Of a DNA stretch of 64,000 bases, positions 5,655 through 63,968 are shown piece by piece. Source of the DNA: Leucoraja ocellata (taxonomy: Eukaryota); assembly GCA_036785375.1 (NCBI GenBank), contig JAWMAR010000023.1, positions 7,316,001-7,380,000 on the forward strand. Reading direction: 5' to 3'. The translations under genes were made by a program, and so were the position numbers. Under the pieces are notes generated by a model. That model did no database searches. It was given only the letters and a program-made list of their open reading frames with translations, and was not told where the DNA came from. Position 1 is the stretch's first letter. Every line of letters begins with the position of its first letter.

Positions 5655-5755
5655 AAGTCTGAAGAAGGGTGTCGACCCGAAACGTCACCCGTTCCTTCGC
5701 TGCAGAGATGCTGCCTGTCCCGCTGAGTTACTCCAGCATTTTGTGTCTACCTTCA
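5655..5755 (+). mobile_element. Penelope-like pLTR-derived short element with a minimal hammerhead-like core (5659-5686)
   Basis: CTGAAGA-A-GGGT(gtcg)ACCC-GAAAC-GTC followed by the family tail agatgctgcctgtcccgctgagttactccagc. Confidence 0.7.
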
Positions 5756-6841
5756 AAAATAAAGACAATTCCCCCCCAAAAAATGGTCTTGTAGCACTTT
5801 AGTGCTGAGTTTTGTTCAGGTTTCATATTGTTACTGTTAGATGAAATTACCCTACAGGTTTACTCATCATATATTTGAGAAATTGTGTTTCAGCAGCTGA
5901 TAGCCCATGCAACAATATTTTGTTTCCTGTTCTTCCTGCAATCCTAGGATAGTGGTCTAGTAGCAATAATGTGTCAAGACTGAAACAGGTCTAATGTAGC
6001 CTGGATGAGCTTTGTGAACCTCTGCGTAATATACATCTAGTTCAGGCATCCTGAGTGTAACACTATTCAAAGTATAACTTGCATTATATTCTCAATGCCT
6101 CGATCTAACCTCTCATGATGCACTCACAACTGAACGATTGGACTTTTGTGTTCAATGTTGTGAGTTGCCATGTAACAAATGTAAATTTTAATCACTCCAT
6201 ATTTTCAATGCACTATTCATTATTTGAGTATTTTTTTACTCAAATGTTCAAGTTCTGAGACATTGTGCTACAGGGGGAACAAGGTCACTTGGTGCTGTTG
6301 AAACCAATACTTTCAGCTGATTGATGGGAGGGGATGGGGGAAGCAATTTGTAGTTTAATCCAATAAATAAGTTTGGTGAGTTCACAAACGGAATGGATGC
6401 CTCAGGAATGGATTATAGCAACACCAGCTATAGTGTAGGTTGTGCTGCAGCATGATCAGTCTACTCAACAGAAAACTCTGGGCATGGTCTATAATGTTAC
6501 AAAGACCTCAAAATATAAAATGCTGGAAACATTTAGAAAACATTCAGCAATAGCCAAGCAAAAAGGACAAGTTTTTCAGTTACATGCTAATTTTTCATCT
6601 GCAGAACCTGCCTTACCTGTTGACTATTGGCACTTTTTTTGGATATGGCCAAAGTTTCAGTTATACACAGCCATGAGCTCCCCACTTGTATTTCAATAAA
6701 AAATGAAACCACACAAACACACTGCTGCACCTCAAACAATCAAAACTGGGGCTTGGTAAAACAAATAGAAAGTTCCCCAATGCCAGATAAAATTTATTAT
6801 TCCATCAAAAGGATTTTGGAACACACATTCGAAAGTGCAGA

Positions 6842-6855
6842 AATAAAACTTTATT
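6842..6855. terminator. Back-to-back polyadenylation signals: AATAAA on + (6842-6847) and AATAAA on - (6855-6850)
   Basis: Sequence aAATAAAacTTTATTt lies between the convergent MTHFR and C1orf167-like stop codons. Other + strand AATAAA occur at 4268, 4298, 6362 and 6695, so the site actually used is unproven. Confidence 0.45.
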
Positions 6856-7359
6856 TTAGAACAGGTTTTATAAAGAAATATACCCAAAGTACAACTTATT
6901 GAAAGTAAGTCAAAAATGAATGCAGTTAGATAAAGTCCACAACAAAATCTGCAGGTGAGACTGGATAGAAAACACACCAAGTTATAATTGCAAGTGGATT
7001 ACATTTTGAGAAGTGTCCTAACTGTACGATGTCTCCTCACTACGGTCGTCAGTACCACGAACCAGGCGTTGGGCTAGATCTTGAGGCCACTAAACCCAAC
7101 TTTTATCTCTGAAGTTGTTTGTAATCTAATTACTGGCAGAGCACAAAGTTAGAATTGCCTTACAAATATGATTTCCCCTTATGAAAATGCACCATCTTCA
7201 ACCTGTCCAACGAGATTGGAAACTGAGTGAACCAGAACAGACTGACACTGGACATTTGGGTTTTGTTGGAACCTTGTGGCATCATTCTGTTCATCTTCAG
7301 AAGCAATGTCAGTGGGAAGCCCCGAGCCTTTGTTTTGGGGCAAGCTTAAGATTTACCCA

Positions 7360-7413
7360 CTATCTCGTATTTCTCTGTTTTTCAACAACCAATCTTATCC
7401 AGGTCGTGAAAAC
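7360..7413 (-). CDS. C1orf167: C1orf167-like terminal coding exon ([17 protein letters not shown])
   Basis: ttttattcttag acceptor; TAG at 7362-7360; completes an LLxxxFxxW repeat across the junction. Confidence 0.8.
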   Translation of the reverse strand, partial: VFTTWIRLVVEKQRNTR

Positions 7414-10400
7414 CTAAGAATAAAATAGACACATCAGATTTACAGTGAGTGGGTTCAGTGTGAGTGAGGATCAGATTTATGTTGCTGACGTGTATAATTC
7501 AAAATCATCAGAGACTGAAATGTTATATAACAATTTTGCACCCTATTAGTGAAATTTTATGCTGTAAAATTTGAGTGAATAGTATTGAGTGAAACAAAAT
7601 ACTAATTAGGAAAGTCATTATTTCTGTGCTACTGCTGCTGAAACATGCCTGCCTCAATTACATCCTCTGGCAGCTCATTCCCCATACCCACCACCCTCTG
7701 TGTGAAGAAGTTGCCTATCAGATTCCTAATGAATCTATCCCCTCTCACCGCAAACCCATGCCCTCTAGTTCGTGAAAATAATTGCCCCCTCAGAATTAGC
7801 AGAGATTTAAGATGACAATTTTAAACATTTTTTTTGTTTAGGCCACCTTTGGTTTGCCTGAACCAAAGGGTGGCACTCAGTCAGTTTAAAAGATTTAAAC
7901 ATGTGCCTCTACATTTACTGGAGAATACAGGTCTGTAGAGTAACAGGCTGAGAATCTTGATATAGAAACAAAGAAAAATAGATGCTGGAATAGGCCATTC
8001 GGCCCTTCAAGCCAGCACCGCCATTCAATATGATAATAGCTGATCATAAGTACCCCATTCCTGCTTTCCCCCCCATATCTCTTGATTCCTTTAGGCCAAA
8101 GAGCTAAATCTAACTCTCCTGAAAACATCCAGTGAATTGGCCTCCACTGCATCAATGTAAATTGTTTAGAGAAAGTGGAAATCAGTAACTGTTCCTACTG
8201 CTGATCACAGAGAGTTGGGGTGTGGGGAGCACATAATATGAGAGCCTTTTATGCTCCAGAATTTACTGCTGGGTAGGAGAAAGAAAAAGCAGCCAGGCAC
8301 CCTCAGCACACCTCTGATCCCGAGGTAAAGATTTTAGGGAGGAGGGTGGGGGTGGGGTGGGGGGGGGGGGGGAATGTTGTAATTCCTGGAAAAACAGGAA
8401 GACAACCAGACTGCTGATCCTCAGTATTTGGCTCAACCATGATGAAAGGTGACTGAGTGATACACCAAGGCATTTAACAAGAGAGAGGGAGTGACCAATA
8501 TTGTAATGGTGCTATATGTAACTTTGGTACCTACGTCCAACAGCAGGATCCTGTCGTCCTGAGCTGCAAACGCCTTTGACACCTGCATCTGTATGAACCG
8601 TCTCCGCCACAACTGCCATGCGTGCAGCTCCAGCTCCTGCTCGTACTGTGGGGGAGAGAGAAGCTTCCATCAGTGAAATACGCTATAAACAGAGCATAGA
8701 TCCAATAGCACCTGACTGTTTACTAGTAGAGGCTTCCAGATTATGAGCTGATTAAAGTGGAGTGAATTCCCTATTGCCATCATTCAGGCAGGGTGTGTGT
8801 CTCTTGTTTATGTCAATAGGAGGACAAGGATCAGCTGCAGGATGGATCCCATTATCTCAGTCCTGCCCATAAAGACAGCCGACAGATGGATGGCGAGGCT
8901 TCTTCAATGGGGAGATTCTCAGGGGAGGCTGCCTTCCCCTCATATATCTTTGCTGTAACGTATGATTCAACATATTACCAGCCAAAGCAGGTGAACAGAA
9001 TGGCCCAGAGACCACAACAGGTTTCTCATCCCCAGAAAAGAGGATGATAAATGACGCTGGAGCAGGCTATATTTGATTATTGCTGAAACTGACAAACACA
9101 GCCTAGCCGATGTCTGTGGATGAAACAATTAGTAGCCAAGGGGCTTTGAATGGAATGGCAGAGTATTCCCATTCAGTCAGGATAACACTTTTAACACTCA
9201 TATTTTATTTATTTGTACATTGTACAGTTTATTGTCACGTTATCGAGGTACAATGAAAAGCTTTTGTTGTGTGCTATCCAGTCAGGAGAAAGATAATATA
9301 TGATTACAATTGAGCAAATCGAATCCAGACCGGATAACCGGTTGAAGATTGTCAAACTCAAGAAATAATTATTTTTACAATAAATCTTTATCAAAATCAT
9401 TGCAAGTCAGAAGTGGGCAGCTGTGTTTAGTCCTCCCTGTCCTAGTCTGCTGCGGCCTCTTTATCATAATTTACATAGAAAGTGACATTAAAATTGCTAT
9501 GGAAATGTAAAGCTAGATTAAATTAGTCACAGCTTAAACTGATTAAATTTAAAAATAATTTCAAATGAGAACTGCTATGCTCACCAGTCCCCTGGTCACC
9601 AGCATGCTCACAGTGAAGCTCCTCCACTGCTCCCAGATCTCCTGCAGCTTCTCGACTCTTTTCTTCTCCAGAAGTTGCTGTAGGAGTGTTTTGTTCCACC
9701 AGTTTATCAACAGTCGTTTGCTGTGGGGGGAAAATAGAAACAGCTTGTAAACTCATTCAAATGGGGATGCAGCTGACAGAGCTGCTGCCTCGTGGTGCCA
9801 GAGACTAGAGATCGATCCTGACGTTGGGTGCTGTATGTGTGGAGTTTGCACGTTCTCTCTGTTTCCTCTGGGTGATCCCATTTGCTCCCACATCCCAAAG
9901 TTGTGTGGGTTTGTACATTATTTGGCCTCTATAAATTGCCTCTAGAGTGTAGGGTGTGGATGTGAAAGTAGGATAAGAGAACTAGTGCAAACAGGTGATT
10001 GATGGTCTGCATGAACTCGGTCGGCCTGGGTCCTTTGTTTATGTTGTCTCTTTCATTCAATTAAAATCCACAAAATGCTGGAGGAATTCAGTGGGTGAGG
10101 CAGCATCTGTGGAGTTCCTCCAGCACTTTGTATTTTGCTCAAGATTTCAGCATTTACAGTTTCTTATGTTTCTCTTGTAAACCCCTGTACATTCACAACT
10201 CATCAACCCAGCACACCCCTCCTATTTCGTATAGGAACATTCTGTGTCCTAAAAAAATGAGACAGCCAGAGAAAGTCTTTCAGTGACAAAGCAAGACCAA
10301 TCACCATAATTGATTCCTGTGGTGTTGCTCTGCACGAGATTCCTCCACATCCCACCGATCTGTCTGCTTCTGTGCCAGTACAAAAAGAATCCACCGTGAC

Positions 10401-13322
10401 ACAAATTTCCGTGACACATATCTGACACGATATCTGATTGCTTGCAGCTGTGAAAGAAGGGCAGATTTAAGCAGTGCCTCAGATAAAGATCACAAAGTAA
10501 CAGTCAATCCTCTGTCAATGCCTTCCCGCCTGCATTTCCATTGAACAGGGAGCACCGTTAGAAATTAGTGAACTGTTTAATTAAATTTCAATTCTACCCA
10601 TTTGTCTGACTTTTGCTCAGTCGCTCAGCACAGATCAGTCAAGCTTTTTGTCACCTAACCCCCCTCCTTCCACCCCCCTCACCTTCCCTCCCCTGGACTG
10701 CTATCTATTTCTCCCCCCCCCCCCCCCCCCCCCCCCTCTCAGCCATTTTCCTTCCTCTGACTTCCTAGTCTGCAACACTTGGAACCAGTCTCACACCTGA
10801 TACCTGGCCTTTGTTCCAGGCACCCACCACTCCCCATGTAAATAAATCTTGCCCTGCACATCTCCTTTAAACTTTAACCATCACATCTTAAAGCTGTGCC
10901 CTCTTGTCTTTGGCATTTCCACCCTGGGAAAAAGGTTGTGACTGTCTACACTATCTATGCCTCTCATAATTGTATATACTTCTATCAGATCTCTCAACAT
11001 CCGACGCTCCTGACAAAAAACTTTCAAGTTTCTCCAACCCATTCCAGCTAATACCCTTTAATCCAGGTATCTGGATCTGATTACTTTGTACCACCGTGAG
11101 ATCTTCTTTTACCTGTTTGGAATGCAATCAGCAACAAAAGACATTTTATTTTCTTTGATGATAGGCCATAGTAAAGCAAAATCTTTTGAACTGCGAAGGT
11201 AGACAAAAATGCTGGAGAAACTCAGCGGGTGTGACAGCATCTATGGAGCGAAGGAAATAGGCAACGTTTTGGGTTGAGACATTTGAACTACTGTAAGTTA
11301 GCACACAGCTCTCCATACCAACCTCCATATACCAGGATATCAATGCTTTGTGCAAGATTCGTTCACTCTGTCGTTGCACAAATGAGGCCATCTTATATTG
11401 CAAGTGCAACTGACTTCTCCAGGTCACAAATGTCGAGTTTAGCCGCAACAATAAAACTTGAGCCGATGCAGTCAATGCCCAATGCTTCTGCTGATGTACG
11501 TTTCCTTCCCAAGTGAGAAAGCACCTAGGGTTTGATGGGAAAGTAAACCGATTCAACTCAGTTTATCCAATGTGCAGAACAACGCACCAGTAATCTCTTT
11601 GTTCAATCTCCAATCAGTCGGCTCGAATTCGGCTCGAAGGGCCGAATGGCCTACTCCTGCACCTAATTTCTATGTTTCTATGTAATATGTGCTATGTTAG
11701 CAGCAGCAGCTGGGTCACAATAGTTCTTATCAAACTGAGGCTGCATCTCTTTACCAATATTTTAATTAATTTCAAAAATGAACTTTATTATAAAAAATAC
11801 ATACAAAACAAAAACCATGCAAAACTCTGAATACATTCTGAGTATGCTAATGCATACAATAATGCTAGTGTTATACCCAGTAGTGTTTGAACAACTCTAC
11901 ATCTTTGGCACTCATGTGGTCCCCTGGGGTGATATTCTGCCCCTTATTTGAGGGGTGTCCTCACTGGATTCAGCCCTTGAATACCCAGCAGCAGAAGGAC
12001 CCAGGATGTGGTTCTCCCCCACCAAGCCTTCACGTTAGCTGCACAAAGCTTCAGTGCATCCCTCAGCACATACTCCTGCTGGGGCCTGGAATGGGCCAGT
12101 CAGCAACATTCCCTAATGGGCATCTTGCTGAGCTGGAAACTAACACGTTTCGGGCAGACCACCGAATGAATTGGTCTTCCAGCTGCACTTGATGTCTGTC
12201 TCAGTAGGTGTCCCAGGGAACTGCCCGTAAATTAGAGAGCCCTCTGTCATGCAGCTGCTTGGGATGAACCCGGAGGAGGACTCTTGCATTTTTTGCCAGG
12301 CCCTCTTAGCAAATTCACACGGCAAAGAGGTGGGACGCTGCCCCCAGGGCAGCATCCATTGAGAGTGAGACCCCAATGGCACAGGAAGGTTTCCATATGG
12401 TTCTTCAGTTTACATTGTGAAATGTAAAGAATTCCACCTTGTGCTCCTCTTGCTCTGGAAGCAAGTGTTGCTGAAAACTGCAGTGCATTGGATTAAATTT
12501 AAACAGGCAGTTTCCAAACAGTTCAAAACAAATGAATTATTTTAATAGAATATAGAAAATATTCGGGTGGCGCCGTACGATGGCAGCCTCGTCCTTTTCT
12601 TCTTTTGTTGTTTTTAGTCTGTTGTTAAATGTATGTTTCAGTGTATCTTTAATTTTGTATTATGTGTGGGGTGGGGAGGGGGAAACTTTATAAAAACTCT
12701 TTCCTCGACGGAGATGCGACTTTTTCCGTATCGTATCTCCGTCCACACTGCGGCCTAACATCGTGGAGCTGACGGACCCATTGCTGGGGATCGACTTCGG
12801 GAGTTCCAACCGCAGAAGCCTGCGGACTTAACATCATGGAGCTCGCGGTCTCTTTGTCAGGGATCGACTTCAGGAGCTCCAACCACAGGAGCTTTGACCG
12901 CCCCGATCGCGGGAGCTTCAATCTCCCCGACATGGGAGCTTCAATCTCCCCGACTGCAGAAGTTTTGACTGTCCCGACCGCGGGAGAAAAGGAGGGAAGA
13001 TAATACATTATTGCCTTCCATCACAGTGTGCTGTGGCGGATGTTTATGTTAATTTTTATGTAGCTGTGTGTCTTGTTGCTGTTTTGGTATGACTGTATGG
13101 CAAATCAAATTTGTTGTATGTTTTTACTTGGCAAATAAATTTATTACAATTACAAAAAGTCAAGAAACATTATTAAGGCAATTATACGCACAAGTTTTAT
13201 TCTAATGATCTATGATGGGATGTACAGGGGGTTGATAGATTTTAGTTTTTTACCTGGCAGCAATGAAATAAAGAGCAGCAAAGGATGGGGAGCTGGGATT
13301 TGAACTATAATGAAATTAGTTT

Positions 13323-13386
<64 letters not shown>

Positions 13387-16300
13387 GTGTGGGGTATGAG
13401 AGCTCTGGATGAGTCATACCTGCGGAGTAATGTTTGCTGGGAGTGCATGACAGCCTCTCTTTGCTTCAGACACAATGTTGCCATCTGATGAAATGCAGCC
13501 TGCACTACCCGGTGCCGTGATGCAGACATCACCTTCCTCTGCCTCACACCCTCGTCCTTTCGTTCTGGAGAAGCAAGGGATTGATTGCTGCTCATTTATC
13601 AGCACTGATTAAAATGAACAAGACTACAATATGCCCACACCCCCAGATACTATTCCCTGGACGTGCTTGATGTAGAAGTGTTGGAGTTACAGTGATCCAC
13701 ATGGATGATATTTAGTGAGGAGGCAAAATTTGGATGACTAGTCTGCTAGCATACTCAAGTAGTAGTCTCGTCCCGGTCACTCTCCCTTCCCTCCTCACCC
13801 GTCAGCTTTTCAATGTACTTCGGTACACGTGACAATAATAAACTAAAATAAACTAAAACACAAAGTGCTGGAGGAACTCAGTAGGTAAGGCAGCATCTGT
13901 GGAGGGAATGGACAGACAACATTTGGGGTCGGTGCCCTTTCTTCAGACTGAGTGAGCCAGGAGAGTTGCTGATAGAAACATTTTCTGCATTGTTAAATTT
14001 CACTCTAATTTCAGTGCAATTCTCTGTGGTGATATCTCTGTGGCCATCATCTCAACTTTAATGACAGTTTATTACATTTCTGGCCAGTTTTCTATAAAAG
14101 AAAGACAAGCAACTCATGCAATGTGATCTTAAGAAGAATTTCTCACCTTTCACCAATCTGGCCCAGGCATGGAGCAGGTGCCTCAAGTGCCTCTCTCCAA
14201 TGTTACCAGCAAATTGCTGGGACAGCTGGGATAATCTGACAGCCTCCTTCCAACTATTGAACAACTGCAAACAAAACCACTCAGAAAGGGTTAAATCATG
14301 GTGCAGTCACAAGAGAACATAGTAGTATTAGGACTATCAAAAACTAATTTAACTGTCTGCCATGAGGCTACATACACATTGTGAACCTCAGGGAATCCCT
14401 TGTGGATAATTTTAGATGGGTAATATTAAATGTAACTCATCTCAAACTTGGTCGTGAGATACATCACAACACAAAATGACCTTGTTTTCATCTAAAACTC
14501 CTCCAAAGACAGCAGATCCTGAATGACAAATACTGTTGGAAAATAAGTGTGGAAATGTGGTAAGAGATTGGCTTGGCTGGACCCCAAGGATACGCCTTCC
14601 TGGCATCCAGTTCTTTAATGGCACATAGGAAATGTATGCACAGTGAGGCACCAGAGGCCCTGCTGCTTGTGAATAGGAACCAGCAAGAGTTAATACCTTC
14701 ATCAGCGTGGTAACAATTATAGTCTACAACCTGTGGGTTGTTGTACTGACTCAGCATTGATGAATAGATTAAGGACCTTGTTAATGCACATGGACAAATC
14801 AGAATTAACAAGCTCGGGCTCCAAAAGCACCAGCTGATACGTGGAAGTGGTCTACGAGGGAGTTCTACTCGAGCTCACACAGAGTAACAGAGAAAATAGG
14901 TGCAGGAGTAGTCCCTTCAAGTGAGCACTGCCATTCAAAATGACCATGGCTGATCATCCAGAATCTGTACCCCATTCCTGCTTTCTCCCCATATCCCTTG
15001 ATTCTGTTAGCCCTCTAAGCTATATCCAACTCTCTCTTGAATACTGCCAAATGAGATGAGTTTTCTCACCCTAGATGTTTTACTGGTGAATCCTGCACCA
15101 ATAACACCACAGATGATTAGGGATAACAGGGAGTTGTGTGTGGGAAATGGTGTCTCATTAATTTGACAGTTTGTTGAAGAGATCACCAAGGGGATTGAGG
15201 AGGACCTTGTCTACGTGGACTTTAGCTTGGCCTTTGACAAGGTAGGCTAGAACAGAAGGTTAGATAACATGAGATCCAGGGTGAGCTAGCTAACTGGATT
15301 CAAAGCTGGTTATGTGGAAGGAGTCAGGGGGTAATAGTTTTTCCAATTGGAGGCCTGTGACCAGTGGTGTGCCGCAGGGTTCTGTGCTGGGCCCACTGAT
15401 GTTTACCATCAATATAAATGATCTGGTGACAAGAGAGTTCATATTGTTCATGAATCTGCAGATGACACCACATTTGGTGGTATAGTGGACAGTAAGAAGG
15501 TTATTTCAGTTTGCTGAATTAACCAGGGAAGTGAGTCAAGGAATGGTAGATGGAACTTAACTTGGGACAAGGGTGAAATGTTGCATTTTGATAAGTCAAA
15601 ACAGGACAGGACTTACACAGGAAATAACGTGGTAGAGCAGAGTATAATTACAGCATAATTTTCCAAAGGTAATGACACAGATAGAAAGGGTGGTGAAGAA
15701 GACATTTGGCATGTTTGCTTTCATTTAAGGATATGAAGTACAGGAGCAAAAAATAAAGTGTAGGAGGAACTGAGTGGGTCAGGCAACATCTATGGAGGGA
15801 ATGGATAAGCGATGTTTCGGGTCGGGACCGTTCTCTAGACAGAAGTCTGAAAAAGGATCCCGACTCCAAACATCGCCTGTCAGTCTGAAGAAGGTCCTGA
15901 CCCGAAATCTTGTCTGTCCTGTGTACCCGAGGCTGTGTATCACTCAACACAGTTTCAGACATTACACTTTGAATGGCAATGAATAATGCTGCCATCTCAT
16001 GGCCCCTGCTAATTTTGTTTTGTAAGTTCTGCCCTCTTGTGGCCTCTGGATAATGCTAACTTGTATCTGTCTAACCAGCAGTCAGAGAACACAGAACAGC
16101 ATAGGAACAGGCCCTTTGACCACAATGTCCATGCCAAATAAGGTCAGCCTGGCCAAGATTCACCAGGAAGCAATTATGGTGTGATTATGTGTTTTAATCA
16201 GTCAACAATTTGTTTGAACAATCACTCAAAGGAGCATAGACACAAAATGCTGGAGTAACTCAGAGGGTCAGGCAGCATCTCTGGAGAAAAAGAATGGTGA

Positions 16301-19300
16301 AGTTTTGGTCGGAACCCTTCTTCCGCTAAGTTACTCCAGCATGTTGTGTCCATAATTAGTGTAAACCAGCATCTGCAGTTCCTTCCTGCACAGTAAGAGG
16401 AGCGTGCCCTGCATGTGGATGGAAAGAATTGGAAAGAAAGGGAGCATGCTCTGGTGTAATTGTCCAGGCACTGCAGTGGAGAAAAAAGAATCAGAATGGT
16501 TTGTCTCAAATCTGAGTGCTGAAACGTTAGGAAGGGGAATTGGGTTTGGAAGAAATCTGGCGTTAATAATTCACTGAGGCAATCCTCGGAAAATTAAAAG
16601 AACACCCAAACGTAAAGTAACCAAGGCAAGAGGCAAAAGTAAATACAAAAGTAAATAAAAACAAGAGGCAAAAATAAAACCAAATAAAAACTATTTCAAA
16701 TGAAACTGAAATATCTAGTTTTAGCACACAAGGTAATGGGGAAATCAAATGGTTTGAGAGAGCCATGGGTGCAAAGTTTTGTTTACTTGAAGGAAATATT
16801 GTTTGAGCAGAGATAGGATTGGGATGGAGCTGGAAACGGGGATTAGAGACAAAGCTGTTCAGGAAAAATCTAATTTCACCTACTATTTGAGTGAGGACAG
16901 TATCTCGATGTCTCAGAGCTTGGTGTAGTATTGCCCTCTGTCTCCAGCACTGGATGACTCTCTGTGCTGTTCTAAGTTTCCTGTGATTCTCTGAGGAACA
17001 CTGCAGCACCAAGTGATATCTCCATTTACTGAAAGACTCCAGCAGGACCCGCAGGTTCTGTGTGGTTTGAAATGCCCACGATTTCTGCCACATCTTCTTT
17101 TTCTGAAGTGTGGCGGAGTGCCAAACCCGTATATACCTGTGCCAAGGAAACAATGAATCAGTAACAGTTCACGGGGATAGAGGAATTAAGAACAAAATCA
17201 GAAACGGATCTTTCAGCCCATTGAATTAAATGCTGCCAGATTCCAGACAGCAACCTTTGCATCCTTTAATATATCAATCTTTCAATCTTGAATTATCAAT
17301 TGATCTTGCACCTAATGCCATCTGTGAAAGTTTCAAGTGTTTATGTAGAAATATTTCTTATCTTCACTCATGACATGCCTGACTCCAATGAGTTGTTTTT
17401 GTGCCTTTGTCCCAAATTCTCCACGAGCAAAAAGTTTATTTTTCTCCAACCATCAGTTTTTAATTAATATTTCAAAATCTTCAATTAAGACTTGGTCTTT
17501 TAAATTTCAGGATATATAACATTTGTTTGCGTAATGCAGGCGAGCTAATTGAATGGAACGCAAAGAATCACTAACTCACACAAATGACACTAACTCACAG
17601 TAATAACTATGTCAGACCTGCTCTGCACCAGCTTGTCTGCCATTATCTTCACATTTCCCTGTCTCGCTGCTTTCTGCGTCCAGGTGCGTAGAATCAAACG
17701 CTTTACTCTCAGTGCGTGGATGGAAAGGAAACGAGCCTGGAGACCTTGGACCTGCTTTCTTTCTGGAAGAGGCAGCACAATTTGCAGAATAGGAATCACA
17801 AGAGGAACTGGCAATTAGTTTTACTGAACAGATTGCACACATCACTAGCACAATAGAAATATAAGCAAGAACTTGTCCCAGAAATTAAGGGTGGAATATA
17901 CTGATGCAGCACAGCTCACCAAGAACCACTTTGGTTATGGGTCCACTGCTTGGACTTACTGGATGTGTAAACAACACCTAACATGCTTGTGGTGCAGAAT
18001 ATTGTGTAGTTATATCCAAATGATCACTCTACTTTCACACTACCGCTAGTAATTAATTTATTCAGGCAAAGCCAGAGGTGGAAACAAGTCCATCTGGGCA
18101 ATACTGGTCTCCTTGCCCAACATCAGTTGATAGAAAATGTTCTTATTCTGCTGGAGATCTTAATGCATCAACTGCCCTGATGTATATAACTGTTCTGTCT
18201 CATGGGCAGCACATTGGTGCAGCTGGTAGAGCTGCTTCCTCACAGGGCCAGAGACCCAGGTTCAATCCCGAACTTGGCGTGGAGTTTGCTTGTTCTTCTT
18301 GTGACTGCATGGATTTCCTCCAGTTTCCTCTCACATCCCAAAGACGTATGGGTTTGTAGGTTCATTGTAAATTGCCCTAGTGTGTAAGGAGTGGATGCAA
18401 AAGTGGGATAACATAGAACTAGTGTGAACGGGAAATTGATGGTCAAGGGGCTTGTTTCCATGCTGCATCTTTCAATCAATTAAAACTTCCTGCGCTGTCA
18501 CTCACTCTCTGTATACTTGTGCCAACAGGACATTGCCTTTTGGATTTTCTGGTGCAACATCTTTCTGCACCTTCTGTCAGTTTCCTGTTTTTGTAATAAA
18601 CGTATTTTCCAAAGAGTCAGCACGACTTGACACTGTTGGCCAAAAGAAAACTCAGCAACCAATTCCCGATATGTCTTGCGGGTCTGCCTCCATCTGCTCC
18701 AACTCTGAAATACTCTGCAGGAGAAAAGTAACACATAAATTATTGATTGTTTGAAAGATAGAGCTTGGAAAAAAAGATCTTTGGCCCACGAAGTCTACGC
18801 CAAGCATCCATCACCCATTCACGCCATTTTTCTTATCCCACTTTCACATCCACTGCGTTACAGAACACAAACTACATCTGCTGCGCCATTAACTTATTCT
18901 AGACATGGCAAAAGTAAGACACCGTGATGAGCCTTATTTCCTCTGGTTGCCAAATAGGAAAGAAGAGACACAAAAAGGGAGATGAGGCAAATTTGGTGTT
19001 GTTGTCTAGTGGCCCTCACTACTGTTGTGGCATGATTACATTTATAGAGAAAACATAAAAAAACTGCAGATGCTGGAATTTGGAGCAGAAAACAAACTGC
19101 TTGAGGAACTCAGCAGGTCAGGCAGTATCTGTATTTTGGGTCTAGACCTATCCTCAGGACTGAAAGAGTGGAGAGGAGGTAGCAAGTTTAAGGTGCTGAA
19201 TGGGTTGGATGAGGAATATGGGAGGTGGATTGGGCAGATGTGAACCGGGGGGACGAGATGATGGGATGAGTGGGTGGGAAAGAAACTGGTTGAGGGGGGC

Positions 19301-38955: not shown

Positions 38956-38959
38956 AGCC

Positions 38960-45200: not shown

Positions 45201-45234
45201 CCACTACTTTCCAACCAGGATCCATTACGCACAA

Positions 45235-45460
45235 GATAGACACAAAATGCTGGAGTAACTCAGCAGTTCAGGCAGCATCTCCATAGAAAATGGACAAGTG
45301 ACGTTTCGGGTCGGGATCTTTCTTCAGACTGAAGATGGGTCCCAACCTGAAATTACAACTGTCCATTTTCTCCTGAGATTCTACCCGACCTACGTTATGT
45401 TGATGCTATGTTACTCCAGCATTTTGTGTCTATGTTTGGTACGAACCAGGCTCTGTAGCT
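45235..45460. mobile_element. Palindromic Penelope-derived element in the probable AGTRAP 3' UTR
   Basis: Arms atagacacaaaatgctggagtaac ... gttactccagcattttgtgtctat are reverse complements. Confidence 0.7.
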
Positions 45461-52100: not shown

Positions 52101-55100
52101 AAAAGTTACAGCATAACTGCACAATCACATTCACAGAGCTACTGGCTAACTTTCAGCATTAAAACTATACAATATTTTAAAGAACCATTACAATATTAAC
52201 TTTTCTGTACTTAGTTGCTGAAGGAAGTTAACAAAAAAGGTCAAAGTGATAATTTTATATCTCAGTAAGTTGGGTTTCCCCACACGGGTTAGCATTTCAG
52301 CTAAACCATTACTGCTCAAGTTCTGAGACTAAAAAGGAATGAATTCCCAAAATATTACAGAGAAACCAAGTGATACAGATTCCTATAAACAATGGTTGTT
52401 ACCTCTACTTGTTTCTGAATAAAGTGACTTTTTTGCGAGTGAGTGGCATTAAAGGGCCAGTCCCACTTGGCGATTTTTTTCGGCGTCTGCCGGCGTCATA
52501 TCAGGGTCACCAAAAGATTTGAACATTCCAAAATCCAGCAACGACAAAAAATGTTGCGACACTTGAAAAAACACCGCGCGTCAAACATCATCATGCCTCA
52601 AATTTTTCGGTGACCTGATACCTCAGTCAATGATGCCGCAGTCACTAAAAAATCGGCAAGTGGAACAAGCCCTTAACTGTCCCACCTTCTAATCATCAGT
52701 GAATATTAAATTGCCCAATCAGTTTTGAAAAGTACTGCTTTAATATGGTTCTTGGCTGCAAGCGGAGTCATCTTTTTGATAATCCTGCCACCTAAACACT
52801 GCCCACCACCCTATCAGCCGCTGAAAAACGTACCAATCAATATCACATCTGGGCTTAGATTACTGATGCTCTACTGGACTTCCATCCTTCTCCACAAATT
52901 TCTGCTCCTCCTAAACTCTGAAGCCCACATCTTATTTGGCCTCAAGTTCTATTCACATCAGTCCTACACTCATGACAGGCACCCAATCCTGACAAACATA
53001 TTAATACAAACTATTAATTCCTTTTGCGGGCTCTCCCCTCATCATCTATGACCTTGACCATCCCAATGATATCCTCTTTCCTAACCATTATTACACCAGT
53101 TCCAGCCATTTGCAAATCTACCAGCATCCACCATTGGCAGACTTAGACATTCTGATTCTCACTCTCTAGGAATGTTCCTAATGCTCATCTATTCGGCCTT
53201 GCTTTCAGTTATTCCTCCATTACAACTCTGTGAAACAACAGTGTAATGCTTATTCTTGTTAAAGGTGCCATTGGTGCTGCTGATGACACAAAAGTGGGTG
53301 GGATTGTGAATTGTGAGTGGAAGACCGAGGTGGTTCAATTGAGTGAGGGGAAAATGCAGTACATGACAAGTTCAGTGCATTGCACATAAATGTGAATTTA
53401 TCCACTTTGGAAGGAAGAGGAGGAAGTCAGGTTGTTATTAACACAGGAAGAGACCAGGAGGTGTTAATATACAAAGTAATCTGATAGCTTTTGTACACCA
53501 GCAATACCATACTGTTTGCTACCTACAAAACTACATCTAGATATGTGCAGCAACAGTGAAGGTTGCAAAAGTATGTTGGCCTTCATTAAAAAAAAAATTT
53601 AAATCCAGGAATAAGTGAATAATTTATTATAATTATATGGGGTCCTGGCAAGATTAAACCTGAAGTCCCGTTGAGAGTTCAGTCTCCTCACCCAAGAATG
53701 GATACAACTGTGATAGGGGGAATACAACAACAGGGGGAATACAACAACTGATTTCTGAGATTGTAGGACTGTCATACAAGGAAAGATTGAATCAACAAAG
53801 CCTCGAATTAATAAAAATGAAAGGAGATTTCATTGAAATGTACAAATGTCTGCCAAGGTTCAATAGGCTCTGGAGAAACAAGAAACTGTAGTTACTGGAA
53901 TCTTAAGTAAAACACAATGTGATGGATGAACTTTGTTAGGCGGCATCTGGAAGGAATGGAGAGGTGTCATTTTAGGTCAGGACCCTTCTTCAAACTGGAG
54001 AATGAAATCAGGTTTCAAGGTGGTTTAATTGAGCAAGTCTAAAGAATGGTCCTGATCCAAGATGTCGCCTGCCCATTCCCTCCCCAGATACTGGCTGAAC
54101 CACTCAGATGATCCAGCCCTTTGTGTTTTGTCAACATGCTCTAGTTCTTTTCATCTAGCTGAGAGTGCAGTGGAAGGACTAAGAACTGGGATCACAGTCT
54201 CATGATGAGTTAAGACACTTAGGAACAAAAGGAGAAGGAATTTCTTCAGTCAGATGATGGTTAAACTGGGGAATTTGTAATCACAGAGGGCTGTGAGGGG
54301 CAAGTTGCTGAATATATTGAATTAAAGATACAAAAGGCATCAAGTGGTGTGGGAGAGAAAATGCTACTGTTACACAAGTTTAGCAATTATCATTGTGAAA
54401 TAACATGACAGGCTCGAAGGGACTATTGACTAATCCCTGCTCTGACTTTTCTCAGTTTCAGAAATGCAGCAGGTGGTTATTTGTTAGCATTATACAATTA
54501 TTTTAAATGGAAGGCAGTGATTTAAGAATAGATTAACAAACTTTCATTACTCACCAGGTTGTAAGGAGCCAGTGCACAGTGATGATCATCTGTGGGGGTC
54601 AAAACCAGGTCATTATGGTATATCTGAACAATCTCTGCAGTTCCAGTGACATTAACAGATCCTAACCCAAGCATATGATCCTCAATGTCTCATATATATA
54701 TATATATATAATATATATATATATGCGTGTGCGTACACACACACACACAAAAAAAAATGTAAACATGTTACGAACACAGTACAGGAACAGGTCCTTTGGC
54801 CCATAATGTCTGTGAAGAACATGATGCCAAGTTAAACTAATCAGCCTGCAAGTGATTCATATCCCCCCCATTAACCTTATGGCTATTTAAAAAATCCTCA
54901 AATGCCATTATCGTATCTGTCTTCTTTGAAATCAATTCCCACAGGCTACAGAGGACCAAGACAAAACAGGAAATACTGTTCCTCAAGCTTGCATTGGAAC
55001 GGTGCAGGAGGGCACAGAAAAATCAGAATAGGTGCGGCATGGTTAATGACGTTGTACGGAACTGCAAGGTTAAGGTAGTCCTGGGGACTGAACGGGTCTG

Positions 55101-56780: not shown

Positions 56781-57074
56781 GGAACATTTGGCCCACAATC
56801 AAGTGATCGCTGAGCAGCTAGCTATTATTGCATCGAGTGAAACTGTACATTTCACCAAGTGCTTTAAAAGGAAACTGCTGGCTGGAGGAACTCAGCATCT
56901 GTGGAGGCTGGTCCTGATACAGAGTCTCCACCTGAAACGTTTGCTGCTTGGTCTGCTCAGTTCCTCGAGCATTTTAGAGTGTGCCGAGAGGCACCCTGGA
57001 TTCTGCAATTTTAGGTGACACCCACCTACTACCCCCCAGTATGCACCTCCCCCATTACCCCAGCACGCCCTTCT

Positions 57075-57300: not shown

Positions 57301-57394
57301 TGAGGGGGGAGAGGGTGGTGGGAAGAACGAACGTTGGAGGGGAGGGGAGGTGGAGGAGGGAGGGAGGGAGGGGGGGGGGGGGGGGGGGGGTTGG

Positions 57395-58812: not shown

Positions 58813-59039
58813 AACAATACTTTTTAATTAATTCATGGGAAAGTAGAATTGTTACCAAGACCATTATTTATTACCCATCCTTAATTGCTCTTGAGAAAGA
58901 GATGGTGATATATGTTCAAACCAGCATTGTTGTGCCAGGCAAGATAACTACAAGTGTGAAGCAATGTAAGGAAACCAATATGCCAAACAGCATAATTATA
59001 ACGAAAATGTGCTGTTCTTCTCTCAATTAAGTTAATTGT

Positions 59040-59522
59040 AAATCACAAAGTGCTGGAGCAACTCAGCGGGTTAGGCAGAGACTGGGAGGAATGGACAGAC
59101 GATATTTTGGGTCAGGACCTTTCTTCAATCTGAGAACTTTATTTTTAAAGGTAGACAAAAGTGCTGGAGAAACTCAGCGGGTGCGGCAGCATTATGGAGA
59201 GAAGGAAATAGGCAACGTTTCGTGCCAAAACCCTTCTTCAGGCCTAAAACGTTGCCTATTTCCTTCGCTCCATAGATGCTGCCGCACCCGCTGAATTTCT
59301 CCAGCACTTTTGTCTACCTTCGATTTTCCAGCTGCAGTTCCTTCTTAAGCACTTTATCATTAAAAGTGGCTTTATGCGAGTTACATTCCTATAGTCTGTG
59401 GAAGGGCCGCAAACCAAAATGTTGCCCGTACATTCCTCCACAGATGCTGCCTGATCTACTGAGTTCCTCCAGCACTTTGTTTTTTACTCAAGATTCCAGC
59501 ATTTGCAGTTTTTTGTGTCTCT
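59040..59522. mobile_element. Nested palindromic Penelope-derived elements
   Basis: Outer inverted arms (about 59040-59130 and 59400-59520) surround a younger palindromic copy (about 59150-59350). Confidence 0.7.
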
Positions 59523-62477
59523 GCCTAGTTACTCACAGGTGGAGATTCTCACATCACATTCTCCTGTTTCCAGTGATATCTTTATTACGCTGTTTTAATA
59601 CAACTGGAAGAAAACAGAAGAATGTGGCTGCAAAAAAAGTGGATGCATGGAGTCAAAAATCCACTAGTATGTCTATGCAGCAAATTCAAGATGTATTTTT
59701 GGGGTAGGTCGTTCTGAGAGGTCACCAGGAGTCAACACTGACTTGATGGCACCTTACAAGACAGGAGACTGGCTGAAATGAACTGCTATTAATGGAGGAT
59801 GTATCATCTCTGGCATGAGCCTTACAGACCGTTTCTTCAAGATTATCCAATGTCACAGTAGACAATCAGCATATTTGTCTGAGTTACAGGATATGAGTCA
59901 CTTGCACACTGAAATAGAAAAATACAGATACTTTTCCACAGTGTCTAAAGCTGACGTGGCGAGTCTCCATTCTGTATCAATCTGCTGATTGCTTTCACTA
60001 TTTGTAAACGTTATCCTTTTCTTGATTATTACACAAATTAGAAAGGTAGTAAGACATTTGTGAAATAATTTTTGAATCGAGCGACAGAAAATAAAGATAG
60101 ACTCAAAATGTTGGAATAACTAAGCGAGTCAGGCAGCATCTCTGGATAAAATGGACAGGTGATATTTTGTGTTGGAACCCTTTTTCAGACAGGACAGAAA
60201 TTGTAAAATAATTGTAAAAATGTCTAGTAACATAAATTAATGCAGTGGTCTGAAAATAGGAAAGGCCAGCTGTTCCTCAAGTGATCGCACCTCATTGGCG
60301 GTGGTATTAAATATTACACAGAGTCTGCATCAATACTCGATGATGTTACTTGGCATGCTTCAATTCAACGACAACAAAAAACAAAGAGACAAGCAACTAT
60401 TTTTTTTCTTATATTGTTGCATTTTAGCCTGTGCTGAGCTTATGGTTGGTTTCAGGTTCTAACTGTTCTTAAGTATTTGCGAAACTTCCATGATCATTGA
60501 ATGAATCATTGCTATGGAATGGAAGTCATTTGGCCACTGGTTTGGGAAGGCAGCAGCATTCCTCCCCAGAATGAGAACGGCAAACCTGCTGATTATTATC
60601 ATCTATATGAAGTCTGGCCATAAACGATTTATGTTGTACATGCAGTCCTATTAACATCACACCACCTTGGTCTAAGTCGGCTTTGGGAGATGAATGTGTC
60701 CCAGTGTTTCTGATTAGTAGGCAACCCAAATGTCACATGAGAATGGGGCAAATATAGCATTCCATAGTCAACTTGTCAATCTGAAATGTCGACTGTCCAT
60801 TCCCTCCACAGATACTGCCTGATCCACTGAGATATTCAAGCACCTTGTGTTTTGCTCAGATCCCAGTGTTTGCAATTCCTTGTGTCTCTCGTTTACTTAA
60901 TTGTAAAGTCTAGACTCACACAGAACCAATAGTCAGTCGGGAAAGATGCCAGCAGATACAGCATCCAAGGAGGCTTAAATTAAAATGGGTAGGATTAGGC
61001 TGCTAGATTCATGTGGATTAACTGTACACAACGCAACAAATAGAGTAGATTGCAGGCTTGAACTGGAGCAGAGCTACATTTTGCTTTAAAAGCCTGATTC
61101 TATTGCAGGAGCAATGAAAGTTCTCTGGTGGGTATTTGTTTAACTGGCATTAAAAAGTGGCAGAGTAATCCAGGGCACACTTCGTATCTCAAGATATTAA
61201 AGGGGCAAGAATATCATAATGAGGAGGTTTATGTGTATGGTGATTGTATGATTAGGGAGATAGACAGTTTCTTGGTAAAGAGCAACACATGATGGGGGGC
61301 GGGGGGGGGCAGGAGAATCTGCCAGATGATGGCCTGGTGGGGGGTAGCCTTAGGTGGAAGTTGATTGAGTGTACAGTAGAGAGGCTTCTCGGAAATAAAT
61401 GTTGACAGCATAATGTTATGCATCATTAGTGGAGTCAGGGTACTGCAGTTTGTTCTAGCTACCTTTTCTCAAAATGACATTACGATCAATTTATAAACAT
61501 TGCATACAAATGTTAATTTGAACATTAATCGTAATAGCCAGGAGCAGACTATCAAAACAACAACAAGTAATGGTGTATGAAGGTTTACTAAATTATAGTG
61601 ATGAATTATTGAGTAGTGGAGCAATAGTGGAGGATAGTGGATTAAAGTGATATGTACTGAGTACGTGGGAATGGTGGATTAGTATGAAGACATGGGTGTT
61701 AATGGGGCAATGGAAGCAATGGAGGCAGTAGTCAGTAATGGGTATTAGTGGGGGCATAGAATTGAAATGATGGTATTTAGATTTGGGTGCTGGATTGCAT
61801 TAATGGAAAGCTAGGTAATATGTATAGGTGGAGGTGTTAGCTTGAGTATGAATGTTGTATTGTTGTGATAGGGTTCTGGATACTGGCTATGAGTGGAAAT
61901 GTTAATGTGGCATAAAGGATATTGAATATGATTGGGGGTTTTGGATAGTGATGCTTAACTAATGGGTAAAAAGTGTGAAATGAAAGCGGAATTGTGCTAA
62001 TGGAATTCTCAGGATGAATGGAAAAATTAAATTGGACCAGCGAGGAAAATAGGATTATAGTTATGGGACACAGATTATGAGTTAAGTATATTTGATTGGA
62101 GTGGTGAGATATTGGTTACAACTGCAGTACATCTTGGATGTTGATTGAACTTATGGAGTTTCTGGTTCATTGTAGGAGAATAGAATTGTCACATTGAATT
62201 ATTGGGTATGAGTGGGTACAATGTATTGCAAAGATAGCGTGTTGGATGGTACTGACTGATGTTGGGGAAACAGGAGAATGCTGATTGTAATGTTGGGTAT
62301 GAGTTTGACAGTGGAATGGATGGGCTAGATGTGGAATGACATGGGAGTGTATATTCCAGGCAGCTCTTGGTCTATCAGGCATATGTTGGAATCATCAAGA
62401 TTTTAGCCACTTTTTACTTTGAGATCATTTTTTGACTGGTTGCATGGACCAATTAAGCTGGATTCCGTCTCGTCTTT

Positions 62478-62590
62478 TCAGACCGTAATGAATGATCCGT
62501 GATCAACGTTGATTGAATCAGGTTCCACACAACGCCCTCGCCTTCGAGTAACTCTCCGGTTTCGGTGAAACTTGGCATAGCAGCGGAGAC
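62478..62590 (-). CDS. DRAXIN: Draxin terminal coding exon ([37 protein letters not shown]); upstream exons lie outside the window
   Basis: ttcaccag acceptor, phase 1. The peptide is nearly identical to the draxin C-terminal Cys-rich region. Position upstream of AGTRAP is syntenic. Missed by the ORF track. Confidence 0.95.
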
Positions 62591-62859
62591 CTGGTGAACA
62601 GCGAAGAATTATAAAGGGATTCAGGCTTTGCAGCTTACTAGGACATGGTTTGATTATTAGCTTTAACTACAGCAACAAGATCCATTCCCTTTCCTTATTT
62701 ACCATGCTGAAAAATATAGTTAACAGTTTACAGTAGATGTTTATATCTTACCACAGCACCAAGAGGAGAATAGAATTTTAGTGAATGACTGTGAACATGA
62801 ATGGGAGACGTTGAGCTGATTTCAGGGGCAGTATAAGATTGTGTTCACGGGATACTGGG

Positions 62860-63440
62860 TTTCTTTCAAACTGCTAAGAAAATTTAGCATGTGACCAATG
62901 CCACTTGCCAATGTCTGCAGATGCATCATAGAACGCGTCCTATCGTGTTTCGTCAGGTCTTGGTTTGGCAACTGCTCTCCCCAAGAATGCAAGAAATGTC
63001 AGTGTTGTGGCCACTAGTCTAGTTCAACGTGCAGACCGCCTTCTCCCCTTCCCTTCGTCGTCCCCCCGGTCCCACCATGACTCCAATCTACACTTTACCT
63101 CAGGAAAGCAGCCAACATAATAAAGGACCATTTAACCCCAATCATTCCCTCTTCCACCCTCTCCCATTGGACAGAAGATACAAAAGCTTGAAATCAGATA
63201 CAAAAACTTCTTCCCGCTGTTACCAGACTATTGAATGGACTACTAAGTGTATTCCCAATATATCATGATGCGGCCCTTGCACTGTCTTTTAATTCTGCAT
63301 ATTCTTTATCAGCTGTAATACTTTGCACTCTATTTCCTTTCTCTTTCTACACTACGTGTTGTGCTCATTTATGGTTTTATTGTACTCAAGAATGATATGG
63401 TTTGCCTGGATAGCAAACAAAACAAAGTTTATTACAATTA
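62860..63440 (+). mobile_element. Rex1/Babar-type LINE 3' fragment in a DRAXIN intron
   Basis: HSLFHPLPLDRRYKSLK remnant and family 3' tail. Confidence 0.6.
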
Positions 63441-63544
63441 TGTCAGCACGTGCCAATCATAAACCCACACTAATACCATTCCTGTCACTTCAATGACCAC
63501 TGAATGGGTTAATGAGGAGGCAACACTCACAGGTCTGAAAAGGA

Positions 63545-63968
63545 CAGAGCTAGAGTAACTCAGCAGATCTCTGGAGAACATGGATAGGTGACATTTTGGG
63601 TCAGGACTCTTCTTCAGACTAATTGTAGGGGGGGGGGGGGTGGGGGAGCTGGGAGAGAGGATAGGTAGGACAAAGTGTGGCAGATAATGGGTGGACAGAG
63701 GCAAGTTTTTTTTGATAGGTAGATGGTTGGAACAAAGGTCAGAGATTAAAAGAGAAGATGTAAGACAGACTGACTGAGGAGTTGCAAATTGTGAAGCCAG
63801 AAGTAGGAATGTAGGAAGGAGTGGAGGGAAGAAATAGGTGCAAGTCCAGATGAGGTACAGTGGAGGGGAAGGCGAGAACGGGGTGGGTGGGGGCTGTTAA
63901 AATATGAGCTAAAATTGGAGCATTCTGTGTTCATATCATTGGGTTGTAGACTACCCAACATATGAGAG
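63545..63968 (-). mobile_element. Penelope-like retroelement 3' fragment (GIY-YIG endonuclease C-terminus plus pLTR)
   Basis: The - strand peptide LGSLQPNDMNTECSNF resembles the vertebrate Penelope EN C-terminus. It is followed by a pyrimidine-rich linker and the same pLTR arm as the short elements. Confidence 0.7.

What the first reader, a model, noticed from the sequence alone, without database searches (positions are those of the whole stretch)
5655..63968. Dense family of Penelope-derived mini-elements carrying minimal hammerhead-ribozyme-like cores
Seen: about 20 copies of one about-100-bp arm, e.g. at 5655, 10065, 11195, 13855, 15745, 16235, 21102, 21842, 22980, 24280, 28375, 36620-36840, 37160, 45235, 53870, 59040, 60095, 60780 and 63545. 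The best-preserved copies read CTGAAGA-A-[4-bp stem + tetraloop]-GAAAC-GT(C/T), at 5659-5686 (+) and about 23041-23069 (-). At 63545-63968 and 19050-19450 the same arm is attached to a Penelope GIY-YIG C-terminal remnant, which ties the family to a Penelope-like element (PLE). Established: CUGANGA...GAAA is the hammerhead catalytic core, and PLE terminal repeats are known to carry minimal type-I hammerheads with a vestigial palindromic stem III thought to need dimerisation. Inference: this genome is littered with non-coding, ribozyme-bearing PLE derivatives (retrozyme-like), about one per 3 kb here. Caveats: stem I pairing is weak by eye, there is an extra A after the core, and most copies are mutated.
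Basis: partly seen in the sequence, partly recalled or inferred. Interest (0 to 1): 0.7.

Follow-up and report, generated by a model that had tools for sequence, protein, structure and literature searches.

The report
Penelope retroelement tips carrying minimal hammerheads
These roughly 100-base repeats are the end pieces of a very abundant Penelope-type jumping gene in a shark- or ray-like genome and carry a small, mostly decayed hammerhead RNA motif already known from such elements; the one unusual feature is that many start at the same base just ahead of the motif, likely because copying ran off the front end of the element's RNA.

Summary
The family is real: 35-37 arms in the window, all 19 listed sites hit, about 1.7 million genome-wide (so this window is ordinary), 62,033 with an exact 28-nt core. 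Each arm is the pLTR/ORF-start segment of a Neptune-type Penelope-like element (PLE) of a cartilaginous fish. The motif is the published PLE minimal hammerhead: the 'extra A' and short helix I are known features, and helix I covaries in distant relatives (42 of 45 cells paired). Only 2 of 35 window copies are intact; copies decay neutrally. They are not retrozymes: no tandem units, and 5' ends avoid the scissile bond. Young arms are separate insertions with target-site duplications (38 of 53), end at +94 or +130 (the PLE tail), and start sharply at the G two bases before the core, with an excess extra G (49% vs 30%). Inverted pairs use one end each (17 of 20). Best reading: run-off cDNA of the RNA's 5' end, primed at internal start sites. 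Cleavage and the RNA start are untested. This scan has noted the same family and boundary before on other DNA, including this genome.

The parts
5657..5754 (+). Solo arm, subtype A: starts at G(-2)/A(-3), intact minimal hammerhead 5659-5686 (predicted scissile bond 5686/5687), ends at about +96 without tail
   Evidence: no exact TSD found
22974..23071 (-). Solo arm, subtype B: starts at G(-2), intact core 23069-23042, ends about +96, flanked by an exact 17-18-bp target-site duplication
63546..63966 (-). 5'-truncated PLE end: GIY-YIG C-terminal remnant (63966-63907), pyrimidine-rich spacer, decayed arm (63617-63546)
19040..19450 (-). Older 5'-truncated PLE end: ORF 3' remnant (19450-19364), spacer, internally deleted arm with tail
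21104..21330 (.). Head-to-head inverted pair (21189- / 21200+); one arm ends near +85, the other near +129
21825..22050 (.). Head-to-head inverted pair (21918- / 21922+), joined inside stem II; ends near +104 and +130
45233..45450 (.). Head-to-head inverted pair joined at the quasi-palindrome just 5' of the core; 45327-45300 keeps both core boxes but only 2 of 4 stem II pairs
59041..59520 (.). Cluster of four arms: inverted pair 59241-/59240+ (ends +95/+130) plus arms at 59127 (-) and 59396 (+)
36686..36840 (.). Decayed head-to-head pair
53910..54128 (.). Decayed head-to-head pair, 47 nt apart
15749..16390 (.). Two compound insertions: arm with re-copied 5' ends (15749-15923) and an arm paired with a short inverted 3' piece with tail (16238-16390)
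10068..10175 (.). Arm 3' half without core (10114-10068) with a short inverted piece
11195..11284 (-). Arm lacking the first core box
13856..13950 (-). Solo arm, older subtype, core decayed
24280..24372 (-). Solo arm, older subtype; boxes kept, stem II 2 of 4, CG palindrome lost
26423..30710 (+). Four partial, coreless arms (26423-26483, 28327-28396, 28466-28544, 30678-30710)
37160..37272 (-). Decayed arm with tail
44975..45048 (+). Decayed partial arm
56914..56976 (+). Internally deleted arm
60094..60852 (.). Two separate arms: 60188-60099 (-), starting at -2, core decayed; 60777-60852 (+), coreless

Best explanation
The arms are separately inserted copies of the first 95-130 bases after the terminal-repeat boundary of a Neptune-type Penelope-like retrotransposon, and they likely arise when the element's enzyme primes at its internal start sites near the front of its RNA and runs off the RNA's 5' end, carrying along a minimal hammerhead motif that is predicted to cut poorly if at all. 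Shown here: in long copies the order is endonuclease stop, 90-310 nt pyrimidine-rich spacer, arm, 30-35-nt tail, ORF start 164 nt after the core; young short arms have 9-16-bp target duplications, end at about +94 or +130 and begin mostly at G(-2). Inferred: G(-2) is the physical 5' end of the template (probably a capped transcription start inside an initiator-like TCAGT), so arms are the PLE analogue of retroviral strong-stop DNA; head-to-head pairs form when both nicked target strands prime, one at each start site, and the two cDNAs are joined at their 3' ends. The hammerhead is under selection in active master elements but is cargo in these dead copies.
For: Layout: 67 of 86 endonuclease C-terminus hits have an arm 90-431 nt downstream; arm-tail-ORF junction in L188-L210; GIY-YIG above the Pfam cut-off; RT in the same frame. 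Insertions: TSD >=7 bp in 38 of 53 independent young solos versus 41 of 1040 swapped-flank controls; TSD >=12 bp in 14 of 20 inverted units. 3' ends: 35 near +94, 17 near +130, 1 other of 53 solos; 17 of 20 inverted units have one of each (p about 1e-5 on the 18 classifiable), matching the two in vitro start sites and two-strand extension of the anole PLE (PMC11167929). 5' ends: of 65 young exact-core copies 38 run >=50 nt upstream, 27 start between -8 and +1, none between -9 and -49. Whole-genome counts for subtype B give estimated starts of 3.0k, 7.0k, 2.5k and <=1.5k at -1, -2, -3, -4. Both arms of several inverted units end at -2 with filler between them (L230, L232, L290, L320), and several ORF-bearing long copies also begin within about 6 nt of the core (L188/L192, L189, L208). 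G precedes G(-2) in 2113 of 4322 (48.9% vs 30.4%); an extra G marks capped full-length L1 insertions (PMC11702581). Structure: core in 25 of 68 distant relatives (strict descriptor; 0 in 680 shuffles, 2 on the opposite strand); helix I, not part of the descriptor, pairs in 42 of 45 cells against 22.9 permuted; 0 of 11 core positions versus about 21 of 57 downstream positions differ between four subfamily consensuses (p 0.014).
Against: No RNA start was seen: poly(A) and single-cell reads show no pile-up of starts or ends on the element, 78-96% of laid reads run on into unlike sequence; these libraries are swamped by passenger copies and come from other organism labels, so they neither confirm nor refute. 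A canonical initiator would start at A(-3), yet the mode is G(-2) and A(-3) starts show no extra G (about 26 of the first 100 listed, counted by eye, 28 expected). Part of the G excess is re-copying of the arm's own GAAGAAGG or target microhomology (8 of 19 non-empty fillers look re-copied, in a set partly selected for G). TCAG is not conserved ahead of the core in distant relatives. In D. virilis Penelope the start lies 46 nt before an intron whose end abuts helix I, a different layout. The young set was selected for an intact core, contains duplicated loci, and cannot show starts inside the core; old copies show extra starts near +21 to +23 and +41. Cleavage was not tested; Rfam does not recognise the motif.
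Confidence: 0.62

Rival explanations
1. Ordinary 5' truncation with a hotspot: arms are primed at the 3' copy of the terminal segment on long RNA, and reverse transcription stops at -2 because of an obstacle there (splice-acceptor complex or branch, bound protein, RNA fold) or because twin cDNAs anneal at the TCAG-T-CTGA quasi-palindrome.
For: The spacer is a long pyrimidine tract ending in YAG, like a 3' splice site; the D. virilis intron ends at helix I; some inverted junctions sit on the quasi-palindrome (L219, window 45327/45329); 38 of 65 young copies do read through into the spacer, so long templates are used.
Against: Solo arms with no partner have the same boundary, so annealing alone cannot explain it; the boundary keeps the G of the AG instead of starting after it; 0 of 88 ORF-end/core pairs show a spliced-out spacer and no such joint is among the best-supported RNA joints (142 weaker joints not shown); long ORF-bearing copies start at the same place; excess extra G.
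Confidence: 0.22
2. A non-autonomous, SINE- or retrozyme-like mini-element with its own short master copies, amplified in trans by PLE protein.
For: Fixed 5' and 3' ends, own TSDs and no ORF; a pLTR alone was sufficient for integration in trans in a rotifer (PMC3846280); vertebrate retrozymes derive from pLTRs (bioRxiv 2026.07.22.740005). Short pLTR-started transcripts from truncated copies could serve as templates, which the best explanation does not exclude.
Against: Short arms come in the same sequence subtypes as ORF-linked ends; no tandem units; hammerhead minimal, not canonical; 5' ends avoid the scissile bond (hazard 0.004 per nt at +24..+33 versus 0.058 at -6..+3 among 218 solos).
Confidence: 0.09
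3. Self-priming or fold-back, possibly on an antisense template, makes the inverted units, and solos are by-products (model proposed for rotifer PLEs).
For: Head-to-head units are common (132 of 387 arms); some fillers are short palindromes (L232, L290); proposed in PMC3846280.
Against: Units with both arms complete to -2, the strict one-short/one-long 3' end rule (17 of 20) and intact TSDs fit two priming events better; the anole enzyme extends both strands from sense RNA in vitro.
Confidence: 0.05
4. The templates are hammerhead-cleaved RNAs and the dispersed copies are active ribozymes acting on host transcripts.
For: 62,033 exact cores genome-wide; arms are abundant in RNA reads on both strands.
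Against: Copies retain the sequence 5' of the cut site; no RNA ends at the cut site; 2 of 35 window and 25 of 352 sampled copies intact; the predicted lowest-energy fold buries the core, 6-10 kcal/mol below the hammerhead conformer; published monomers do not cleave and the anole motif needs its protein.
Confidence: 0.02

Closest known systems
Minimal type-I hammerheads (min-HHR) in pLTRs of metazoan PLEs, including fish Xena, Poseidon and Neptune (Cervera and De la Pena 2014, PMC4209133)
   Same: Core boxes, one extra nucleotide after position 9, G10.1-C11.1, palindromic 15.2-16.2, short helix I, location in the terminal repeat, mostly single dispersed copies tied to truncated PLEs.
   Different: Stem II is 4 bp (7-8 in Schistosoma); copy number is far higher (62,033 exact cores, about 1.7 million arms, versus about 4,000-9,000 motifs reported for coelacanth and Xenopus with a different search); chondrichthyans are not named in the text I read (supplement not seen).
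EN+ PLEs of the Neptune type (PMC8557442; PMC3846280)
   Same: RT followed by a cysteine-rich linker and C-terminal GIY-YIG with invariant CCHH; partial tandems; inverted 5'-truncated copy; 30-40-bp tail at one end only; 8-16-bp TSDs.
   Different: A large share of insertions is reduced to the 95-130-nt terminal segment with a single-base 5' mode; solo pLTRs here carry their own TSDs, whereas several rotifer solos did not; an extra roughly 930-nt proline-rich stretch lies between the N-terminal domain and RT.
Poseidon element PAc of the green anole (Frangieh et al. 2024, PMC11167929)
   Same: Hammerhead at the pLTR-ORF junction; two internal RT start sites about 30-40 nt apart defining the tail; uncleaved RNA as template; both strands extended.
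   Different: In PAc the ORF starts within stem II; here the ATG lies 164 nt after the core, beyond the tail. The passages read do not describe a fixed 5' boundary of short insertions.
Metazoan non-LTR retrozymes (PMC7229834; bioRxiv 2026.07.22.740005)
   Same: Non-coding, type-I hammerhead, PLE-related, dispersed monomers occur.
   Different: Retrozymes are tandem 150-450-bp units with canonical hammerheads that yield circular RNA; these arms are solo or head-to-head, minimal, and do not start at the cut site.

Membership tests
PLE minimal hammerhead (min-HHR) | CUGANGA and GAAA...UH core boxes | tested here: met
   Exact in 4 window copies, all subfamily consensuses except a CpG-decayed position in one, 62,033 genome-wide
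PLE minimal hammerhead (min-HHR) | Extra nucleotide between 9 and 10.1; G10.1-C11.1; palindromic 15.2-16.2 | tested here: met
   A, G-C and CG in the family and in 15-16 of 16 distinct relatives; features listed in PMC4209133
PLE minimal hammerhead (min-HHR) | Helix II and short helix I supported by covariation | tested here: met
   Within the genome only one-sided changes (U-A to U-G) in both stems; across relatives helix I 42 of 45 cells paired with double changes, permuted mean 22.9, related sequences included; one C3-G8 to U3-A8 case (L404)
PLE minimal hammerhead (min-HHR) | Located in the PLE terminal repeat | tested here: met
PLE minimal hammerhead (min-HHR) | Self-cleavage as dimer or with protein help | not testable with these tools
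   RNA reads show no ends at the site but are uninformative
Rfam hammerhead families | Match to a curated covariance model | tested here: not met
   No hammerhead hit at E<=5
Neptune-type EN+ PLE | RT plus C-terminal GIY-YIG in one frame | tested here: met
   L126, L128 frames; PF01541 23.4 bits, cut-off 22.6; no fully intact ORF was recovered
Neptune-type EN+ PLE | CX2-5CXXC linker and CCHH motif | tested here: met
   (C84, C87, H109, H125 invariant); the linker is shared with Nematis
Neptune-type EN+ PLE | Phylogenetic placement in Neptune rather than Nematis | not tested
   No reference set of clades available; no tree built
Neptune-type EN+ PLE | pLTR partial tandem, inverted truncated copy, tail at one end, TSD | tested here: met
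Non-LTR retrozyme | Tandem units, at least two consecutive with complete hammerheads | tested here: not met
   No such array in the window; 2 of 130 close same-strand pairs in 784 kb have both cores
Non-LTR retrozyme | Canonical type-I hammerhead (6-bp helix I, loop-loop contacts) | tested here: not met
   Helix I is 2 bp
Non-LTR retrozyme | Abundant circular RNA | not testable with these tools
   Only poly(A)/oligo-dT and single-cell libraries were laid

The most novel reading that the evidence does not exclude
Penelope-like elements make a strong-stop-like product: the RNA begins at the first base of hammerhead helix I, the enzyme dimer primes both target strands at the two start sites only about 95 and 130 nt downstream, and the run-off cDNAs are inserted on their own, so that more than a million ribozyme-bearing stubs in this genome record, base by base, the template's capped 5' end and the fixed asymmetry of the two subunits.
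Probability: 0.45. Interest if true: 0.6.

Novelty: new member of a known kind. Interest (0 to 1): 0.33.

Why it matters
As a ribozyme finding it is ordinary: PLE minimal hammerheads are published and most copies here are broken. Its value is as a record of how PLEs insert, which is still poorly understood: the fixed 5' base, the two 3' ends, the one-of-each rule in inverted pairs and 14-bp-type target duplications give predictions that the existing in vitro PLE system can test directly. The sheer number (about 5% of the genome by arm length; 62,033 exact cores) also makes it a place to ask whether passenger hammerheads ever cut host RNA.

Tried and rejected
Rfam: no hammerhead hit; miRNA hits are just the inverted pairs. 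RNA: no RNA holder listed for the stretch; raw reads from organisms A and C laid on L195 and on window 4500-23500 showed passenger coverage only, no start or end pile-up on arms, and near-zero depth on unique window sequence, so nothing can be said on transcription of this locus. Cleaved-RNA template: rejected, no start peak at +29. Spliced-out spacer: 0 of 88. Deletion remnants: rejected by TSDs. Per-copy core conservation: non-CpG core 0.95 vs flank 0.92 (p 0.01), but confounded by A-richness, selection of copies with intact 5' ends and residual subfamily structure, so not used as evidence. Capped start at A(-3): no G excess. Protein-level confirmation of the two window remnants was not significant; DNA-level was. 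Exact TSDs were found for only 1 of 10 tested window solos at >=9 bp, as expected for older copies. An intact full-length ORF was not found in the loci fetched. No tree of short versus ORF-linked arms was built. Lunse et al. 2017 (dimer cleavage) was not held; only its title was seen in a reference list. Literature searches for a description of this family or of a strong-stop product found nothing relevant; Repbase and Dfam could not be searched.
Full report
Numbering: +1 is the C of CTGAAGA (hammerhead C3); -1, -2, -3 are the T, G and A before it; the predicted scissile bond lies between +28 and +29.

1. Observation. A profile built from the window finds 37 arms at E<=0.01, none in five shuffles or the reversed window; 35 remain in pooled searches. 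Four exact cores occur (5659, 23069, 45327, 59241) against 0.01 expected. Seven of 35 arms keep both boxes and two (5659, 23069) also keep stem II and the CG palindrome. The ORF remnants at 63966-63907 and 19450-19364 are confirmed by a DNA profile (E 7.5e-9, 1.3e-5), not by a protein profile. Rfam gives no hammerhead hit. The window is not special: 352 arms in 72 arbitrarily chosen 10-kb stretches extrapolate to about 1.7 million (1.4-2.0) in 3.44 Gb, and an exact 28-nt core occurs 62,033 times, control 0. Duplicated assembly segments may inflate absolute counts.

2. Parent element. [quoted passage not shown] Closest named proteins are from rays and sharks. The linker points to Neptune or Nematis (PMC8557442 passages); no tree was built. 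67 of 86 endonuclease C-termini have an arm 90-431 nt downstream. In partial tandems the arm is followed by a 30-35-nt tail and then the ORF, whose ATG is 164 nt after the core. The arm is therefore the pLTR/ORF junction, as in the anole element PAc (PMC11167929, parts 1-2 of 4 read).

3. The hammerhead. It fits the published PLE minimal hammerhead point by point (PMC4209133, parts 1-2 of 4 read); the extra A is a listed hallmark. Within this genome helix I is 2 bp (U-A or U-G, G-C) and stem II varies on one side only. Stronger evidence comes from 80 metagenome loci with 40-55% protein identity: of 68 with enough downstream DNA, 25 carry the strict motif, mostly 88-138 nt after the match end, against 0 in 680 shuffles and 2 on the opposite strand; helix I, which the descriptor ignored, pairs in 42 of 45 cells over 15 distinct contexts, permuted mean 22.9 (the contexts are not fully independent). 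Four subfamily consensuses differ at 0 of 11 core and about 21 of 57 downstream positions. Individual copies decay without protection: G12 in a CpG is kept in 72%, like other CpGs. The lowest-energy fold of three young copies pairs the purine-rich core with the downstream pyrimidine tract, 6-10 kcal/mol below the hammerhead conformer, tertiary contacts ignored. Published monomers do not cleave, dimers do so weakly, and the anole motif needs its protein and is dispensable for insertion in vitro. So the motif is selected in master elements and is inert cargo in nearly all copies here (inference).

4. How the arms were made. In 344 of 387 sampled arms that could be aligned, 5' ends pile up at -6..+3 (solo hazard 0.058 per nt) and avoid the cut site (0.004 at +24..+33); upstream it is 0.006-0.014 beyond -10 (old subtypes may lack a matching spacer reference). 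Young copies are cleaner. I fetched 60 stretches around the first listed exact cores on contig C1 (65 cores, some duplicated loci): 38 run at least 50 nt upstream, 27 start between -8 and +1 with mode -2, none between -9 and -49. Whole-genome counts for subtype B (1667, 4322, 2608, 1299), corrected for chance matches, give about 3.0k, 7.0k, 2.5k and at most 1.5k starts at -1 to -4. Adding 60 loci selected for short starts and removing duplicates gave 73 copies: 38 of 53 solos have a TSD of 7 bp or more, most often 14 (control 41 of 1040), and 14 of 20 inverted units have 12 bp or more. The window copy at 23071-22974 has an exact 17-18-bp TSD. Solos end near +94 (35) or +130 (17); inverted units have one of each in 17 of 20. 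This matches the two start sites and two-strand extension seen in vitro and the known one-sided tail. Several inverted units have both arms ending at -2 with filler between them, and some ORF-bearing copies begin within about 6 nt of the core, which suggests a physical template end. G precedes G(-2) in 48.9% against 30.4% expected; an extra G marks capped full-length L1 insertions (PMC11702581 passages). Against this: fillers often re-copy the arm's own start (8 of 19), A(-3) starts show no G excess, the initiator-like TCAGT (consensus recalled, not from a call; a similar TCACT is noted in a rotifer pLTR) is not conserved in distant relatives, the D. virilis start lies elsewhere (PMC2377424 passages and section 15), and RNA reads show no start.

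5. Mechanism. Shown: identity, layout, TSDs, end positions. Inferred, about 60%: RNA starts at the first base of helix I; the start sites occur both near its 5' end and at its 3' end; priming at the 5' copy gives 95-130-nt run-off cDNA, priming at the 3' copy gives ordinary truncated long copies; priming on both strands gives head-to-head units. Main rival, about 20%: a stop at a splice-acceptor-like or palindromic site on long RNA; no spliced genomic form was found (0 of 88).

6. Comparison. Member of the PLE minimal-hammerhead kind on every feature testable here; works like the terminal segment of an EN+ PLE; fails the retrozyme tests of tandem units and canonical helix I (PMC7229834 passages; bioRxiv 2026.07.22.740005 parts 1-3 of 5). 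Inverted pLTRs, tails and TSDs are described (PMC3846280 passages; PMC6765202 passages). Four searches found no paper on this family or on a strong-stop product; supplements, figures, Repbase and Dfam were not seen and may list it. Earlier notes of this scan report the same family and the same 5' boundary in this and other genomes; I consulted them after reaching this reading and they are not independent support.

7. Verdict. Real, well explained, new member of a known kind; interest 0.33, carried by the insertion-mechanism signal rather than by the ribozyme.

Noticed in passing
window 54930-55143 (-): A third, very old GIY-YIG C-terminal remnant (DNA profile E 0.0016; tblastn E 0.011) with no arm at the usual distance.
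   Followed up: partly
window 5500-5900 and L002 (G000:C882): The 5657 locus, flanks included, has a near-identical inverted copy on another contig; many paired loci also occur within C1 (L218/L239, L216/L240). Segmental duplication or retained haplotypes would inflate counts.
   Followed up: no
L131:1740-2510 and 4970-7450: An array of more than 20 arm fragments in alternating orientation beside an RT-bearing copy.
   Followed up: no
L166-L168, between N-terminal domain and RT: About 930 nt of extra, proline-rich coding-like sequence relative to the 889-aa relative P0013; linker or retained intron not resolved.
   Followed up: no
L404 (428 nt after the match): Distant relative with the U3-A8 core variant reported for Schistosoma.
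   Followed up: partly
P0005 C-terminus: An annotated shark protein ends in a frame that reads through what looks like the same hammerhead, suggesting gene models built on PLE ends.
   Followed up: no
L233, L252; window 59041-59520: Young arms inserted into or beside older arms; possible preference for existing copies, not tested.
   Followed up: no
window 7986-8126, 11631-11683, 14885-15015: Another abundant repeat family, heavily covered by RNA reads, unrelated to the arm.
   Followed up: no
arm +30 to +52: A second pyrimidine tract ending in AG inside the arm resembles a 3' splice site and is also the partner strand of the alternative hairpin that buries the core.
   Followed up: partly
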